Shown one piece after another: positions 24,676 to 44,730 of a stretch of 64,000 bases of DNA. Position 1 is the first letter of the stretch; each line of letters opens with the position of its first letter. Under the pieces are notes generated by a model, which saw only the letters and a list, made by a program, of their open reading frames with translations, did not search any database and was not told the DNA's origin. A program made the position numbers and the translations under genes. The stretch comes from Gemmatimonadota bacterium (lineage in GTDB: Bacteria > JBHIER01 > G020348925), in the NCBI GenBank assembly GCA_020348925.1, contig CP070758.1, positions 4,107,688-4,171,687 on the forward strand, read 5' to 3'.

Positions 24676-24804
24676 TCTTACAAAGAAAAACCGCCCCAAT
24701 CTTATGACCGGAGCGGTTTCTTCATTCCTTTACTTTTCGATCCCTCGCTTCAGCTCAGGACATGCTCTTCAACCTATTAACTTAGTAACTTTGTAACTTG
24801 GTTT

Positions 24805-25160
24805 TCACTTCATCAACACCATCTGCCTGGTGGCGGTAAAATCGTTCGCCTCGATCCGGTAGAAGTAGACGCCGCTGGGCAGGCCCGCCGTATCCCAGGA
24901 GAAAGTGTAATAGCCGGCATCCAGACCATCGTCAACCAACACCGCCACCTCCTGTCCCAGCATGTTGTACACCCTCAGCCTCACCTGACTGTCCTCAGGC
25001 AAGCCAAACTCAATATTGGTCTCGGGATTGAAAGGATTCGGATAGTTCTCCAATAAAATATATTCCTCTGGAACAATTCCCCCCTTTGTCGCCAGAGGTC
25101 CCCGAAAATGTGGCAGCCGCCTCACTTCCATTGTCACGTCCACACTGTGTGTCACATCGC
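24805..25160 (-). CDS. C-terminal T9SS-type/FlgD-like sorting domain of a secreted protein, truncated by the gap
   Basis: NYPNPFNPET.I.F.LP....V.L.VYN.LGQEV..L...SGVYFY..MVLMK. Confidence 0.85.
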
Positions 25161-27315: not shown

Positions 27316-28992
27316 ATGGAAGAAATTCGCATAGGTGTTTTCGTCTGCAACTGCGGCACCAATATCGCCGGTTTTCTGGACACGAAGGCCGTGGCCGAGT
27401 ACTCCAAGAAACTGCCCCACGTGGTTTTCACCAGAGAAAACCTCTACTCCTGTTCCGAGGCCGGCGTCACGGACATCAAGAACGCCATTATCGAAAATAA
27501 GCTCAACCGGGTTGTGGTGGCGGCCTGCACGCCCCGGACCCACGAGCCCCTCTTCCGGGCTTCCTGCGAGGAAGCGGGCTTGAATCCCTTCCTCTTCGAG
27601 TTCGTCAACATCAGGGAGCAGGATTCCTGGGTCCATAAGAACGAATGGGAGAATGCGACTGACAAGGCCAAAGATCTCATCCGCATGGGTGTAGCCCGGG
27701 CGGCCTACCTCGAGCCGAAGAAGGCCATCATCGCTGACGTTGAGGAGAAGGCGCTCGTCATGGGCGGTGGCATATCCGGGCTGAGCGCGGCCCTCTCCCT
27801 GGCCGATCGTGGGTTCAAGGTCTATCTGGTTGAAAAAGAGAAGGAACTCGGCGGAATTCTGAGAAACATCTACCGCATATACCCCTCGAACATCGATGCC
27901 GCGGACCTGTTGGCACAGAAAATTGGTGCTGTGAAAGAACACCCCAAAATCGACGTGTTCACCTCCTCCGAAGTGTCGGAGGTGAAGGGGTACATCGGCA
28001 AATATCAAATCACTATCGAACACAAGAGGGGCAAACCGAAGCAGCTCAATGTGGGCGTAATCATTGTCGCCACCGGCGCCTCCGTCCTTGTTCCCGAGGA
28101 TATGTACAATTACGACGGAAAGAATGTGATCACCCAACTCGAACTTGAACAAAGATTGAGGGATAATAGTTTCGACGCACAGAACGTGGTCATGATCAAA
28201 TGCGTCGGGGCGCGGGTGCCGGAACGGGTCTACTGCTCCCGCATCTGCTGCATGACGGCCATCAAAAACGGGATAATCATCAAAGAAAAAAATCCAAACG
28301 CAAAGGTTTTTATCCTCTACCGCGACCTCATGTGCTACGGCGACGACAACGAGGAGTTGCTGCGCCAGGCCAAGGAGCACGGTATCCGTTTCGTCGGTTA
28401 CTCGCTGGAGCATCCGCCGGTTGTCGAGAACGGTACGGTGAACGTTCGGAGCAGCCTCCTGGGCAAGGAATTGTCCCTCGAGAGCGATTGTGTCGTGCTG
28501 GCCACGCCCATAATACCCCAGTCAGGTTCCGGGACCGTCTCGAAGATGCTCAAGGTACCTCTCGATGAGACGAAATTCTTTTTGGAGGCCCACATCAAAC
28601 TCCGGCCCGTGGATTTCGCCACAGATGGTATCTACATCTGCGGCACGGCCCACTGGCCGGCGGCCACCAATGAGAGTGTTGCCCAGGCTTTAGGGGCAGC
28701 AGCCCGGGCTTCCATTCCGCTGACCAACAAACAGGTGAACGTCGAGCCCATCGTCTCCATGCTTTTCGACGAGGATCTGTGCCGGGGCTGCGGCATGTGC
28801 GCCTATCTCTGTCCCTACGGGGCCATTGAAATGATCGAGACGGAGAAAGGCACCAAGGCCAAAATGATCGAGGTCGCCTGCAAGGGCTGCGGTGTATGCG
28901 GGGCCACCTGTTACAAGCGGGCTATTAAGATGAGCCATTACACGAACGAACAGATCGAGGCCCAGATAGAGGCGGCGTTTGAAGAGAGATGA
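27316..28992 (+). CDS. hdrA: HdrA-like FAD/Fe-S protein, second module
   Basis: RIGVFVCNCG.NI, VAACTPRTHE, GGGISG, YCSRICC, FLEAH.KLRPVDF; C-terminal 2x[4Fe-4S] motifs. Confidence 0.9.
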   Translation: MEEIRIGVFVCNCGTNIAGFLDTKAVAEYSKKLPHVVFTRENLYSCSEAGVTDIKNAIIENKLNRVVVAACTPRTHEPLFRASCEEAGLNPFLFEFVNIREQDSWVHKNEWENATDKAKDLIRMGVARAAYLEPKKAIIADVEEKALVMGGGISGLSAALSLADRGFKVYLVEKEKELGGILRNIYRIYPSNIDAADLLAQKIGAVKEHPKIDVFTSSEVSEVKGYIGKYQITIEHKRGKPKQLNVGVIIVATGASVLVPEDMYNYDGKNVITQLELEQRLRDNSFDAQNVVMIKCVGARVPERVYCSRICCMTAIKNGIIIKEKNPNAKVFILYRDLMCYGDDNEELLRQAKEHGIRFVGYSLEHPPVVENGTVNVRSSLLGKELSLESDCVVLATPIIPQSGSGTVSKMLKVPLDETKFFLEAHIKLRPVDFATDGIYICGTAHWPAATNESVAQALGAAARASIPLTNKQVNVEPIVSMLFDEDLCRGCGMCAYLCPYGAIEMIETEKGTKAKMIEVACKGCGVCGATCYKRAIKMSHYTNEQIEAQIEAAFEER

Positions 28993-29042
28993 CAGATAAT
29001 AGATAGTAGATGGTAGATTGCAGATATTAGATTGTAGATGAT
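28987..29042 (+). repeat. 7-nt-period tandem array (AGATNNN)x8
   Basis: AGAT at 28987, 28994, 29001, 29008, 29015, 29022, 29029 and 29036. Confidence 0.9.
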
Positions 29043-29054
29043 TGGAGACATGAG

Positions 29055-29492
29055 GTGAGTATTTTGAATGCAGGATATAAAAAATTGAAAATATACCAAC
29101 TCGCTCATGAACTGGCCCTTCAAGTTCATAAGATGTCTTTGAAGTTGCCGAAATTCGAAATGTATGAAGAAGGTAGTCAGGTCAGACGTTCATCAAAATC
29201 CGTATCAAGCAATATTGTAGAAGGTTATTCCCTCAGAAGATACAAGGCAGAATACATTCGTTACCTTTTTAGAGCATACGCTTCATCTCAGGAAACAGTC
29301 GAACATCTCACCTATTTACATGAAACGGAGTCCTTGAAGGATACTCGAATTTATAAGAAGTTTATAACCAAATATTCTGAATTGAATAAGATGCTTTTCT
29401 CATTCATTAGATCAGTAGAAGAAATGCATGAAACAGATTTATTCTCATTTGACAAGGAGCATTCCATCAAACATCTGATATCTACTATCTGA
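29055..29492 (+). CDS. Four-helix-bundle protein (23S rRNA IVP / Avd-like family)
   Basis: YKKLKIYQ.A, LPKFEMY..GSQVRRSSKSV.SNIVEG, YL..A..S..ET..HL; AT-rich compared with its flanks. Confidence 0.88.
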   Translation: MSILNAGYKKLKIYQLAHELALQVHKMSLKLPKFEMYEEGSQVRRSSKSVSSNIVEGYSLRRYKAEYIRYLFRAYASSQETVEHLTYLHETESLKDTRIYKKFITKYSELNKMLFSFIRSVEEMHETDLFSFDKEHSIKHLISTI

Positions 29493-29500
29493 TATCTTAA
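29466..29500 (+). repeat. 7-nt-period array (ATCTNNN), reverse complement of the upstream array
   Basis: ATCT at 29473, 29480, 29487 and 29494; degenerate ATCA at 29466. Confidence 0.8.
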
Positions 29501-29544
29501 TTGAACTATGCACTACGTTACGTTTAGATTCTTACGGTGAAGAG

Positions 29545-30342
29545 ATGAGTGAAGACTACAGACCTAAGATCATCGCCTTCTGCTGCAACTGGTGAGCGTA
29601 CGGAGCAGCTGATCTCGCCGGGGTAGCGAGAACGCAATATCCAACCGATGTCCGGATCATCCGGGTCATGTGCTCGGGGCGGGTCGATCCCGCCTTGGTT
29701 ATAGATGCATACCTCCACGGGGCAGATGGCGTCTTCGTCGGGGCCTGTCTCCGGGGTGAATGCCATTACTCCACCGGAAACCTCGAGGCCGAGGGGAAGA
29801 TGCTCTTGACCCAAAAAATTCTGAAACAGCTGGGCATTAACCCGGATCGGCTCGTCATGCGTTGGATGTCCAGCGCCGAGGGGGCCAAGTTCGTCCGCTT
29901 CACGACGGAGTTCCAGGACAGTATCAAAGAGCTCGGACCCATGGGTTACAGCGAAGGCATCGACAGAAAAGAAATCGAGCTCAAACTGACGGCGGCCAAG
30001 AGTGTTGTGGAGAGCAAGAAGGTACGCTGGGTTGTTGGCAAACGGACGGAATTTCTAAACGACGGCAACCTCTACGGAGAGGTGTTCACCGAGCACGAGA
30101 TCAACCGTCTCTTCGAGGAGGTCGTGCTCGACGAATGCATCATTCAGGAAATTCTGATGCGTACCATGAAGAAGCCGCACACGGTGCACAAATTGTCGGA
30201 GCGGATGCATCTCCCGAAATTCAAAGTGCTGCGCCACCTGGCCGACATGAGAAGGATGGGCCTGGTGAGCCACGTCGGCTTTGACAACAACAGTCCACTC
30301 TGGCAGGCCGGAGAAGTGAAAACAGCTGCCGTCTTGAAATAA
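29545..30342 (+). CDS. mvhD: MvhD-like [2Fe-2S] subunit, probable selenoprotein (UGA 29593-29595), with C-terminal extension
   Basis: MSEDYRPKIIAFCCNW-UGA-AYGAADLAG...IRVMCSGRVDP...GACLRGECHY, in frame with ORF 29668..30342. Confidence 0.9.
29613..29631 (+). promoter_or_regulatory. Candidate SECIS hairpin for mvhD
   Basis: TCTCGC-CGGGGTA-GCGAGA, with a possible lower pairing GCGT/ACGC. Confidence 0.5.
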
Positions 30343-44497: not shown

Positions 44498-44730
44498 CTC
44501 TCAACAGGTAAAATGGGAGCACACCCATCTGTGGGTTGAAAAGTCAAAAAGTTTAAAGTCGAAAAGTTTCCCTTAATAGACATCACTTTCCGATTCAGAG
44601 AGTCCTTTCTTTTCCAAATCTTTCTCTAACTGCCCTTTCGACAGGCTCAAGACAGGCTTTATAAAAGGGAGAAGCTTACAATCCTGCGACCTCTACCTAA
44701 CCCGAATAGTGCGTAAATAAAAACAAAAGC

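What the first reader, a model, noticed from the sequence alone, without database searches (positions are those of the whole stretch)
28987..29500. Four-helix-bundle gene bracketed by mutually complementary 7-nt-period arrays inside the hdrA-mvhD junction
Seen: eight AGATNNN units in exact 7-nt register (28987-29042) begin in the last codons of hdrA. An AT-rich four-helix-bundle ORF follows, then ATCTNNN units in the same register (29466-29500). The arrays are reverse complements: AGATAGTAGAT (29001-29011) pairs perfectly with ATCTACTATCT (29480-29490), and several registers are possible. Known: this protein family (23S rRNA IVP) is encoded in rRNA intervening sequences that are excised from long stems, and it is homologous to the Avd RNA-binding protein of diversity-generating retroelements; hdrA and mvhD are normally adjacent. 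Inference: this is a compact ~510-bp element whose ends fold into a slippable RNA or ssDNA stem that loops out the gene from an mRNA operon. It could be a mobile or self-excising intervening cassette, or a regulatory unit whose protein binds the periodic repeats. I know of no description of such a system.
Basis: partly seen in the sequence, partly recalled or inferred. Interest (0 to 1): 0.85.

Follow-up and report, generated by a model that had tools for sequence, protein, structure and literature searches.

The report
Four-helix gene between mirrored heptamer arrays
A small gene of the '23S rRNA intervening-sequence protein' family sits between two mirror-image runs of 7-base repeats inside an energy-metabolism operon, and the same layout recurs across unrelated bacteria, which hints that this orphan protein family works together with the long-unexplained heptamer repeat arrays of bacterial genomes.

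Summary
Eight AGATNNN units (28987-29042) and four ATCTNNN units (29473-29500) bracket a 145-aa PF05635/TIGR02436 gene. The gene lies in an AT-rich 514-bp insert between hdrA and a selenocysteine mvhD.

It is not a local oddity. In 32 of 56 PF05635 loci from 17 genomes, the upstream flank is reverse-complementary to its own downstream flank beyond the 99th percentile of mismatched pairs. The arms are tandem 7-nt (24 of 32) or 8-nt (5 of 32) units, and the unit differs from locus to locus.

In 5 of 5 units tested, the unit beside the gene is also a dispersed family of about 14-42 arrays in that genome. It is found 0-2 times in each of 40 other genomes. Period 7-8 arrays are about 13 times denser in PF05635-positive genomes (p = 0.0008).

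The layout matches ORF-bearing 23S rRNA intervening sequences: a terminal stem cut by RNase III and heptamers before the ORF in Coxiella. It also resembles REPIN-RAYT gene-repeat pairs.

Best reading: an IVS-like cassette whose periodic arms are the cis partner of the encoded basic pentamer.

Not shown: stem formation, RNase III cleavage or protein binding. No RNA data exist. This link did not turn up in my literature searches.

The parts
27316..28992 (+). hdrA-like gene (558 aa). Its last sense codon AGA and its stop TGA are supplied by the first repeat unit.
   Evidence: ORF. Pfam Pyr_redox_2 and Fer4 hits. The orthologues end ...FEE-stop and ...FNE-stop, without the extra R.
28987..29042 (+). 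Upstream arm: 8 tandem AGATNNN units.
29044..29048 (+). GGAGA, a Shine-Dalgarno-like word 6 nt before the GTG start. An in-frame TTG at 29064 is an alternative start.
   Evidence: Read. Inference only.
29055..29492 (+). PF05635 / TIGR02436 gene ('23S rRNA intervening sequence protein', four-helix bundle), 145 aa, pI 9.3.
29473..29500 (+). Downstream arm: 4 tandem ATCTNNN units, plus a degenerate ATCAAAC at 29466. It overlaps the last codons and the stop of the ORF.
28994..29497 (+). Inverted repeat 28994-29018 / 29473-29497 (25 nt, 80% complementary). It closes a 454-nt loop that holds the gene. The terminal stem appears in both the MFE and the centroid fold.
29545..30342 (+). mvhD/FlpD gene with an in-frame TGA (29593-29595, FCCNW-U-AYG) and a C-terminal ArsR-type HTH. 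It is the downstream neighbour, not part of the cassette.
   Evidence: The same TGA is present in orthologue L049.

Best explanation
The 514-bp AT-rich segment 28987-29500 is one copy of a widespread gene-plus-repeat module. A PF05635 gene (a basic four-helix bundle, and a relative of the pentameric proteins XCC0516, BT_0352 and Avd) lies in the loop between two inverted arrays of 7-8-nt tandem units. It is the mRNA-operon counterpart of the ORF-bearing intervening sequences of 23S rRNA. Shown: the anatomy, its recurrence across the family, and the fact that in other genomes the same unit forms a genome-specific dispersed array family. Inferred: (1) The cassette is transcribed with hdrA-mvhD, since no promoter-like or sense terminator-like site was found inside it. 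(2) In that transcript the two arms pair into a long, periodically interrupted stem. (3) This stem, or the single arrays, is the cis partner of the encoded pentamer, roughly one unit per protomer. This would parallel Avd, which grips its RNA stem-loop with all five protomers. (4) The stem is also a likely RNase III substrate, as in rRNA IVSs, so the cassette mRNA and the flanking cistrons can be separated or tuned. The relationship between gene and repeats is of the REPIN-RAYT kind: one gene flanked by inverted copies of 'its' repeat.
For: Family-wide inverted arms: in 32 of 56 loci the score of the upstream flank against the reverse complement of its own downstream flank exceeds the 99th percentile of 2852 mismatched pairs from different genomes. 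It exceeds the 95th percentile in 39 of 56. The reversed-but-not-complemented control passes in 2 of 56. Arm period is 7 nt in 24 of the 32 and 8 nt in 5. Arrays (TRF score >=30, >=3 copies) occur in 66 of 112 flanks against 7 of 156 control windows from the same loci, with a median of 4.7 copies. In the window's own genome, 37 neighbouring array pairs were scored and only 2 reach an inverted score >=26. Both flank PF05635 genes. All 4 paralogues (22-31% identical) have arms with different units. Dispersed families in other genomes: 83 matches, about 20 arrays, in G027. 72 matches, about 21 arrays, in G027. 126 matches in G036 against 0-1 in each of 40 other genomes. 71 matches in G012 against 0 elsewhere. 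29 matches in G040 against 0-2 elsewhere. Cargo-less inverted pairs of the same units exist. Genome-level link: 29 arrays in 624 kb of 18 PF05635-positive genomes against 3 in 842 kb of 23 negative genomes. Mann-Whitney p = 0.0008, Fisher p = 0.0015. The two closest cross-genome protein pairs keep similar units: arm scores 30 and 33, among the top 4 of 457 pairs. Protein: pLDDT 91.3. TM 0.90-0.94 to 2gsc, 0.78-0.84 to 2rld, 0.71-0.83 to Avd chains. Both PDB relatives are deposited with 5 chains. pI is above 8 in 34 of 42 proteins. Avd's five protomers contact one RNA stem-loop (preprint 10.1101/2023.10.23.563531, passages). The Coxiella IVS has a 28-bp terminal stem cut by RNase III in vitro and heptamers before the ORF (PMC4990558, passages). 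An RNase III gene is present in the own genome. No promoter-like site and no sense terminator-like site lie inside the cassette.
Against: There is no RNA evidence at all. The whole-region fold is not more stable than shuffles (z = -0.21). At this locus the arms are only 80% complementary, and the reversed-arm control folds as well as the real arm. Across 34 stems there are 1269 Watson-Crick positions but also 199 non-compensated mismatches. Wobble G-U (67) exceeds A-C (48) only weakly (p = 0.09), so selection on the sense RNA is not demonstrated. By the strict threshold 24 of 56 loci show no significant inverted arms. Protein similarity does not predict unit similarity overall (Spearman 0.07, permutation p = 0.13). 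For this copy the other AGATNNN arrays of the genome are mostly coding: 25 of the 30 arrays found sit in a T9SS sorting-domain motif. A non-coding dispersed family is therefore not shown here. Pentamer formation by this protein could not be modelled.
Confidence: 0.55

Rival explanations
1. A purely selfish IVS-type insert. The inverted arms exist only to form an RNase III stem that cuts the cassette out of any host transcript (rRNA, tRNA operon or mRNA operon), so that insertion is tolerated. The protein has nothing to do with the repeats.
For: The architecture is the same as the Coxiella IVS, for which RNase III cleavage was shown in vitro. The cassettes sit in transcribed spacers: here between hdrA and mvhD, and in 4 of 56 loci directly after same-strand tRNA genes. 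An RNase III gene is present.
Against: This reading does not explain why the arms are tandem 7-8-nt units rather than any inverted repeat. It does not explain why the same unit is dispersed at 14-42 other arrays per genome. It does not explain why array density tracks the presence of the gene.
Confidence: 0.2
2. Target preference. Heptamer array hairpins are pre-existing features of some genomes, and PF05635 cassettes preferentially land, or survive, in their loops. The association would be positional, not functional.
For: Cargo-less inverted array pairs with short loops exist (L094, L096, L097). There is no overall correlation between protein and unit. The same hdrA-mvhD junction holds other inserts in orthologues: hairpins in L049, and an A-rich tract plus a HicB-like ORF in L050.
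Against: The seven paralogues of one genome have seven different units. The two closest cross-genome orthologue pairs keep similar units, as expected if gene and arms travel together. The paralogues are old (22-31% identity), and no sign of recent hopping was seen.
Confidence: 0.15
3. A DNA-level mobile element. The arrays would be terminal inverted repeats recognised by a transposase or recombinase acting in trans (MITE-like with cargo), or they would extrude as a cruciform.
For: The ends are inverted, the base composition looks foreign, and one tandem duplicate with identical 5' parts exists in G040 (L027/L079).
Against: No target-site duplication is visible at the borders (by eye). No transposase lies in or beside the cassette. 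No near-identical copies exist in the own genome. A 454-nt loop makes a cruciform unlikely.
Confidence: 0.07
4. A chance resemblance of two low-complexity tracts at this locus.
For: The reversed arm pairs as well as the real arm. AGAT-type words are common in this genome.
Against: The family-wide statistics.
Confidence: 0.02

Closest known systems
ORF-bearing intervening sequences of 23S rRNA (Leptospira; Coxiella 'S23p' IVS)
   Same: The protein family is the same. The ORF is enclosed by terminal inverted repeats that form a stem. In Coxiella there are 3-4 tandem heptamers just before the ORF, their number varies among strains, and RNase III cuts the stem in vitro (PMC4990558, passages read).
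   Different: This cassette sits between two protein-coding genes of an operon, not in helix 25 or 45 of 23S rRNA (no rRNA in the window). Both arms are themselves tandem arrays. In other genomes the unit is also a dispersed family.
REPIN-RAYT systems (REP sequences and their associated tyrosine transposase; recalled, no paper read here)
   Same: One gene is flanked by inverted copies of a short repeat. That repeat is dispersed through intergenic DNA of the same genome, often as inverted pairs that form hairpins. Different paralogues go with different repeat families. The genes are old and low in copy number.
   Different: Here the repeat is a tandem array of 7-8-nt units, not a palindromic REP. 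The protein is a small four-helix bundle with no known catalytic motif, not a Y1 transposase.
Avd of diversity-generating retroelements
   Same: It is a homologous fold (TM 0.71-0.83) and a basic pentameric barrel. In the cryo-EM RNP all five protomers contact one RNA stem-loop, with flipped-out bases held between protomers (preprint 10.1101/2023.10.23.563531, passages).
   Different: No reverse transcriptase, template repeat or variable repeat lies beside this gene. The NCBIfam Avd equivalog was matched, far below its cut-off, by one of the four paralogues (not the window's copy): 21 bits against 80.
Dispersed heptamer arrays of bacteria (GGGAATC in Xanthomonas and GGGGAYT in Nostoc, PMC4692102; TAACTGA in Beggiatoaceae, cyanobacteria and Bacteroidetes, PMC4679880; STRR of cyanobacteria, recalled)
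   Same: These are genome-specific tandem heptamers, mostly intergenic, sometimes in convergent pairs (70 pairs in X. campestris), and of unknown function. A post-transcriptional network with an unknown factor has been proposed (passages read).
   Different: Neither paper mentions the S23/IVS protein family: 0 occurrences of 'S23', 'intervening' or 'four helix' in the searches. The supplements were not available to me.
Ring-shaped proteins that read tandem RNA repeats (TRAP, HutP; recalled)
   Same: They are a mechanistic analogy only: an oligomeric ring in which each subunit binds one unit of a short tandem repeat.
   Different: The folds are unrelated. No binding data exist for PF05635 proteins.

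Membership tests
PF05635 / TIGR02436 (23S rRNA IVS protein, four helix bundle protein) | Profile match above the curated cut-off | tested here: met
   Pfam 84.6 bits against 33.8. TIGR02436 85.9 bits against 24.
PF05635 / TIGR02436 | Four-helix-bundle fold like XCC0516 (2gsc) and BT_0352 (2rld) | tested here: met
   Model pLDDT 91.3 with four long helices. TM 0.90-0.94 to 2gsc and 0.78-0.84 to 2rld.
PF05635 / TIGR02436 | Homopentameric barrel | not testable with these tools
The only indirect hint is that 2gsc and 2rld each hold 5 chains.
ORF-bearing 23S rRNA intervening sequence | Inserted in a 23S rRNA gene (helix 25 or 45) | tested here: not met
   No Rfam family, and so no rRNA, in the 64-kb window. 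The neighbours are hdrA and mvhD.
ORF-bearing 23S rRNA intervening sequence | Terminal inverted repeats that enclose the ORF in a stem-loop | tested here: met
   Arms of 25 nt, 80% complementary. The terminal stem appears in the MFE and centroid folds.
ORF-bearing 23S rRNA intervening sequence | Excision by RNase III | not testable with these tools
   No RNA run is available for this sequence. An RNase III gene is present in the genome.
REPIN-RAYT-like gene-repeat pair | Gene flanked by inverted copies of a repeat that is dispersed in the same genome | tested here: inconclusive
   Met for 5 of 5 units tested in other genomes. For this copy the other AGATNNN arrays are almost all coding.
REPIN-RAYT-like gene-repeat pair | The gene encodes an IS200/IS605-type tyrosine transposase | tested here: not met
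   The only Pfam match is PF05635.
Diversity-generating retroelement | Reverse transcriptase with template and variable repeats next to the Avd gene | tested here: not met
   The neighbours are hdrA and mvhD, and no other ORF fits in the 514 bp. The rest of the genome was not searched for an RT.
MITE / insertion sequence | Target-site duplication and near-identical copies | tested here: inconclusive
   No duplication is seen at the borders by eye. The four genomic copies are 22-31% identical as proteins.
CRISPR array | Repeats of more than 20 nt separated by unique spacers | tested here: not met
   The units are 7 nt long and head to tail.

The most novel reading that the evidence does not exclude
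PF05635 proteins are the missing trans-acting partners of the tandem 7-8-nt arrays that litter many bacterial genomes (the STRR-type, TAACTGA-type and GGGAATC-type repeats). Each paralogue, as a pentamer, would read its own unit in RNA or DNA. It would be encoded inside an inverted pair of that unit, and the dispersed arrays would be its regulon or its progeny. rRNA intervening sequences and DGR Avd would then be two specialised offshoots of this system. In this genome the window's paralogue would pair with AGAUNNN arrays, which are embedded, with strong synonymous-codon bias, in the sorting-domain coding part of 41 type IX secretion cargo genes. That sub-case is less likely, about 0.15.
Probability: 0.35. 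Interest if true: 0.9.

Novelty: new variant of a known kind. Interest (0 to 1): 0.8.

Why it matters
Two orphan phenomena would explain each other. Tandem heptamer arrays have been known in cyanobacteria for decades and were later described in Xanthomonas and Beggiatoaceae, and no function or factor has been assigned to them. The PF05635 'S23p / IVS protein' family is common: it was found in 18 of 41 sampled genomes, with up to 19 hits per genome. It has two crystal structures and no known role outside DGRs.

A gene-repeat partnership gives both a directly testable hypothesis, namely binding of a pentamer to about five units. It recasts rRNA intervening sequences as a special case of a cassette that also lives in tRNA and mRNA operons. 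It suggests where the DGR accessory protein Avd came from.

There is also a practical point. Such arrays next to PF05635 genes may be read as CRISPR arrays by automatic pipelines. '23S rRNA IVP' is listed among CRISPR-linked genes in a figure legend of PMC10910872. That this is a false positive is my speculation.

Tried and rejected
- **RNA evidence.** No RNA run was available for this sequence. Read laying therefore used DNA contigs only.
- **Joints in the DNA contigs.** The contigs show joints such as 28965 to 29559 with 37 other letters between, and 28984 to 29563. They come from other organisms at under 90% likeness, with sides of 20-36 nt. They are only weak hints that hdrA and mvhD lie adjacent without the cassette elsewhere, and they are not empty-site alleles.
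- **Same-family genome.** The only genome of the same family (G001) has its contig end inside mvhD, so it gives no junction.
- **Whole-region fold.** It is not better than shuffles.
- **RNA.duplexfold on 150-200-nt flanks.** It gave large energies for mismatched partners too and was not informative: 12 of 56 loci fall below the 1st percentile.
- **Crude gene-context analyses.** Array position relative to genes and neighbour orientation (upstream same strand 26, opposite 22; downstream same strand 35, opposite 16) were too noisy to interpret.
- **Lenient TRF threshold.** A score of 24 was dropped because 47 of 156 control windows passed it.
- **PADLOC.** It gave only a marginal BrxL hit (E 9e-4), which I disregard.
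- **Pentamer modelling.** It was not possible.
- **Supplementary files of papers.** They were closed. The repeat lists of PMC4692102 and PMC4679880 and Table S3 of the DGR preprint might show or contradict the link, and I could not see them.
- **Literature searches for the link.** Only the Coxiella paper mentions heptamers next to this ORF.
Full report
**1. The observation**

The sequence holds eight AGATNNN units in exact 7-nt steps at 28987-29042. It holds four ATCTNNN units at 29473-29500, preceded by a degenerate ATCAAAC. Tandem Repeats Finder and the repeat finder report both arrays, and an inverted repeat 28994-29018 / 29473-29497 of 25 nt that is 80% complementary.

The hdrA ORF ends at 28992, inside the first unit. 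The enclosed ORF 29055-29492 (145 aa) matches PF05635 (E 6.6e-24) and TIGR02436 (E 2e-24) above their cut-offs. GC falls to 0.32-0.40 in the segment, against 0.55-0.62 on both sides.

An RNA fold of 28975-29515 pairs the two arrays in both the minimum-energy and the centroid structures. The whole fold is no more stable than shuffles, however (z = -0.21). The arm duplex is -29.1 kcal/mol against -19.1 +/- 3.4 for shuffles of the downstream arm (3 of 500 as low). The merely reversed arm gives -31.4, so this locus alone is weak evidence.

**2. The gene and its neighbours**

- The model of the protein is confident (pLDDT 91.3) and consists of four long helices.
- Foldseek places it with XCC0516 (2gsc, TM 0.90-0.94), BT_0352 of the 'S23 ribosomal protein family' (2rld, 0.78-0.84) and DGR Avd chains (0.71-0.83).
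- Both sequence-detectable PDB relatives are deposited with five chains.
- The protein is basic (pI 9.3), and 34 of 42 family members aligned here have pI above 8.
- Upstream lies an HdrA-like flavoprotein. Downstream lies an MvhD/FlpD protein with an in-frame TGA (FCCNW-U-AYG) and an ArsR-type HTH.
- No Rfam family, and so no rRNA, lies in the window.
- No sigma-70-like promoter and no sense-strand terminator-like site lie in 28800-29700. That fits co-transcription with the operon but does not prove it.

**3. Is it an insert?**

Two orthologous loci were found with HdrA 67% and 65% identical. Their hdrA genes end ...FEE-stop and ...FNE-stop. Here the gene reads ...FEER-stop, and the extra AGA and the TGA are supplied by the first repeat unit. 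The array therefore begins exactly where the native stop stood.

Neither orthologue offers an empty site.
- L049 has a 337-nt spacer with no ORF. It holds hairpins built from CCAACGGAT-type words (27-nt arms, 89% complementary), followed by a Sec-containing mvhD.
- L050 has an A-rich periodic tract followed by a HicB-like ORF (PF15919, E 5.6e-10), and then the contig ends.

The junction is thus a variable spot that holds different small inserts in each lineage.

DNA contigs of four coded sediment runs include joints from the end of hdrA to the start of mvhD, for example 28965 to 29559 with 37 other letters between. They come from other organisms and have short sides, so they count only as a weak hint. 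No RNA run was available for this sequence.

**4. The layout is a property of the family**

The window's genome has four PF05635 genes, 22-31% identical to each other. All four are flanked by periodic arrays whose two sides are reverse-complementary, and each has a different unit: GAGCAGAG-type, AAAGTNNN-type, AAAATGC-type and AGATNNN.

A family search in 41 genomes found the family in 18. All but one of these genomes are related to the window's genome only at domain level.

I took all above-cut-off hits except three groups: the half-length hits of G018, two hits at contig starts (G005:C13:372-617 and G001:C536:54-347), and one full-length above-cut-off hit, G036:C3:57107-57415. For that hit the 56-row table made labelled its place 'L042', a label that belongs to another locus; the hit's own flanks were never fetched or scored. 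This gave 56 table rows from 17 genomes, of which that one does not represent the hit it names.

| Test | Result |
|---|---|
| Upstream 200 nt vs reverse complement of own downstream 260 nt, above the 99th percentile of 2852 mismatched different-genome pairs | 32 of 56 |
| Same, above the 95th percentile | 39 of 56 |
| Reversed, not complemented control | 2 of 56 |
| Direct comparison (loci with arrays in both orientations) | 11 of 56 |
| Upstream arm period among the 32 positives | 7 nt in 24, 8 nt in 5 |
| TRF arrays (score >=30, >=3 copies, period 6-9) in flanks | 66 of 112 |
| Same in control windows of the same loci | 7 of 156 |
| Median copies per array | 4.7 (IQR 4.2-6.0) |

A laxer TRF threshold had to be dropped because 47 of 156 controls passed it. 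Of the seven hits with internal stops, only one passes the inverted-repeat test.

In the window's own genome I found 168 arrays of period 7-9. Of 37 neighbouring pairs, only two have an inverted score of 26 or more, and both bracket PF05635 genes.

**5. The arms are not private**

In G027 the unit beside one paralogue (AATGGCT) gives 83 matches in about 20 arrays. Four further inverted pairs are among them, and the reversed control gives 0. The unit of another paralogue (CAAGGCT) gives 72 matches in about 21 arrays.

| Unit (genome) | Matches in its own genome | Matches in each of the 40 other genomes |
|---|---|---|
| GAACTGA (G036) | 126 | 0-1 |
| GGTAAAR (G012, which has a single PF05635 gene) | 71 | 0 |
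| GAAGACA (G040) | 29 | 0-2 |

For GAAGACA the reversed control is uninformative, because the word is nearly palindromic.

These five units were chosen because their arrays were clean, which is a selection. Some dispersed sites are inverted pairs with short loops or with no convincing ORF between them (L088, L094, L096, L097). The seven paralogues of G027 carry seven different units.

As a blind genome-level test I took the first 20 kb of contigs 1 and 2 of every genome. For single-contig genomes I took two set positions. I counted period 7-8 arrays with TRF score >=36 and >=3 copies.

| Genomes | Arrays | DNA sampled | Genomes with at least one array |
|---|---|---|---|
| 18 PF05635-positive | 29 | 624 kb | 10 of 18 |
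| 23 PF05635-negative | 3 (all AT-rich 8-mers) | 842 kb | 2 of 23 |

Mann-Whitney one-sided p = 0.0008 and Fisher p = 0.0015. There are caveats. One positive sample happens to include a PF05635 locus. Genome size, GC content and lifestyle may confound the comparison.

**6. Does the protein track the unit?**

Over 457 cross-genome pairs of the 32 positive loci, protein similarity does not predict arm similarity (Spearman 0.07, permutation p = 0.13). The two closest protein pairs (normalised scores 0.69 and 0.64) do have arm scores of 30 and 33, among the top four of 457. The other two of the top four belong to dissimilar proteins. Gene and arms therefore seem to stay together over short evolutionary distances, but no general recognition code is visible.

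**7. RNA stem or binding sites?**

In 34 stems I counted 1269 Watson-Crick positions, 67 G-U, 48 A-C and 199 other mismatches. The excess of G-U over A-C is what a sense-strand RNA helix predicts, but it is weak (p = 0.09).

At this locus the four conserved letters of each unit pair and the three variable ones mostly do not. The helix would therefore be periodically interrupted.

This is not at odds with protein recognition. [quoted passage not shown] Flipped-out bases sit in the crevices between protomers and are held by the same residues of different protomers (preprint 10.1101/2023.10.23.563531, passages read). A median of about five units per arm would fit one unit per protomer. That fit is my inference, not a result.

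**8. What is in print**

For the Coxiella 23S IVS, the passages I read describe several features (PMC4990558):
- a 28-bp terminal stem;
- cleavage by RNase III in vitro;
- an ORF of this family;
- three to four tandem heptamers before the ORF, whose number differs among strains.

Heptamer arrays as such are described for Xanthomonas and Nostoc, with 70 convergent pairs in X. campestris (PMC4692102). They are also described for Beggiatoaceae, cyanobacteria and Bacteroidetes, mostly upstream of start codons, with a proposed but factor-less post-transcriptional network (PMC4679880). In neither text do 'S23', 'intervening' or 'four helix' occur.

Searches for the family name, its Pfam number, 'S23 ribosomal', 'Avd-like', STRR and heptamer terms found no paper that links the family to flanking or dispersed arrays outside the Coxiella IVS. 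Supplements were closed and subscription journals are not covered, so this is absence from my searches, not proof of novelty. The REPIN-RAYT comparison and the STRR history are recalled, not read here.

**9. Reading**

I file the protein in PF05635. I do not file the element as an rRNA IVS, because the location test failed. I do not file it as a REPIN-RAYT system, because the enzyme test failed. It works most like both: an IVS-type stem-loop cassette in a transcribed spacer, and a gene embedded in inverted copies of a repeat family.

- My best explanation (0.55) is that the arrays are the cis partner of the encoded pentamer, and that the arm stem is in addition a likely RNase III site.
- The main rivals are a purely selfish IVS whose protein is unrelated to the repeats (0.2) and mere insertion preference for pre-existing array hairpins (0.15).

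**10. The window's own copy**

In this genome the AGATNNN class is dominated by coding arrays. Of the 30 AGATNNN arrays found, 25 lie in the motif NPFN..TDIRYQI.D of type IX secretion sorting domains.

In 41 such motifs the codons are strongly biased towards the heptamer:

| Codon in the motif | Count | Genome-wide share of that codon |
|---|---|---|
| AGA for Arg | 30 of 39 | 0.18 |
| ATA for the second Ile | 31 of 38 | 0.17 |
| GAT for Asp | 35 of 36 | 0.61 |

Shared ancestry of these domains could explain part of this bias. Whether this paralogue has anything to do with those mRNAs is open.

Noticed in passing
window 29593-29595: mvhD/FlpD has an in-frame TGA in FCCNW-TGA-AYG. The same codon is present in the orthologue L049, so it is probably selenocysteine. 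No SECIS element was looked for.
   Followed up: partly
own genome G000:C1, e.g. 4069718-4069762, 4079342-4079390, 2676867-2676923 (outside the window): 25 of the 30 AGATNNN arrays found lie inside type IX secretion C-terminal sorting domains and encode TDIRYQI.D, which is (GATATCA)n read through three frames. In 41 such motifs the synonymous codons are strongly biased towards the heptamer: AGA 30 of 39 Arg, ATA 31 of 38 Ile. This points to nucleotide-level constraint or to gene conversion. The downstream arm of the cassette is antisense-like to these tracts.
   Followed up: partly
window 24764-24806 and 44539-44569: There are two more short-period arrays in the window, of AACTTNGT-type and AAAGTCAA-type 8-mers. 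They belong to the same class as the flanks of another PF05635 paralogue of this genome, at C1:2517783.
   Followed up: no
own genome G000:C1:1045643-1046140 and 2368858-2369854: A HEPN-like ORF and a HicB/HicA-like pair are bracketed by 8-nt GCACCCCT-type arrays in direct, not inverted, orientation. The HEPN-like ORF is also preceded by an ATCTNNN array that ends at its start codon. The domain names are by eye and were not scanned.
   Followed up: no
L049:3153-3489 and L050:4174-4712: The same hdrA-mvhD junction holds other inserts in two orthologous genomes. One has three hairpins of CCAACGGAT-type words and no ORF. The other has an A-rich periodic tract followed by a HicB-like antitoxin ORF.
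   Followed up: partly
L040, L055, L058, L059: Four PF05635 genes lie directly downstream of same-strand tRNA genes. In L055 the gene sits between tRNA-Ser and tRNA-Arg, with AATCGAR-type array hairpins on both sides. These are stable-RNA operons, like the rRNA setting.
   Followed up: partly
G018, 19 hits (e.g. C7:104028-104554, C2:122174-122711): These are half-length PF05635 matches arranged in divergent pairs. They are a different sub-architecture and I left them out of the survey.
   Followed up: no
L032 (G001:C131): In the only same-family genome, a PF05635 gene is embedded in a chain of repeated modules. Each module has a conserved about 25-nt leader followed by a GAGCRRA-type array, and a cargo-less hairpin of the same units lies just upstream.
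   Followed up: no
PMC10910872, figure legend: '23S rRNA IVP' is listed among genes linked to CRISPR arrays in a large clustering study. The periodic arrays beside these genes might be picked up as CRISPR-like repeats. This is my speculation and was not checked.
   Followed up: no
   Followed up: no
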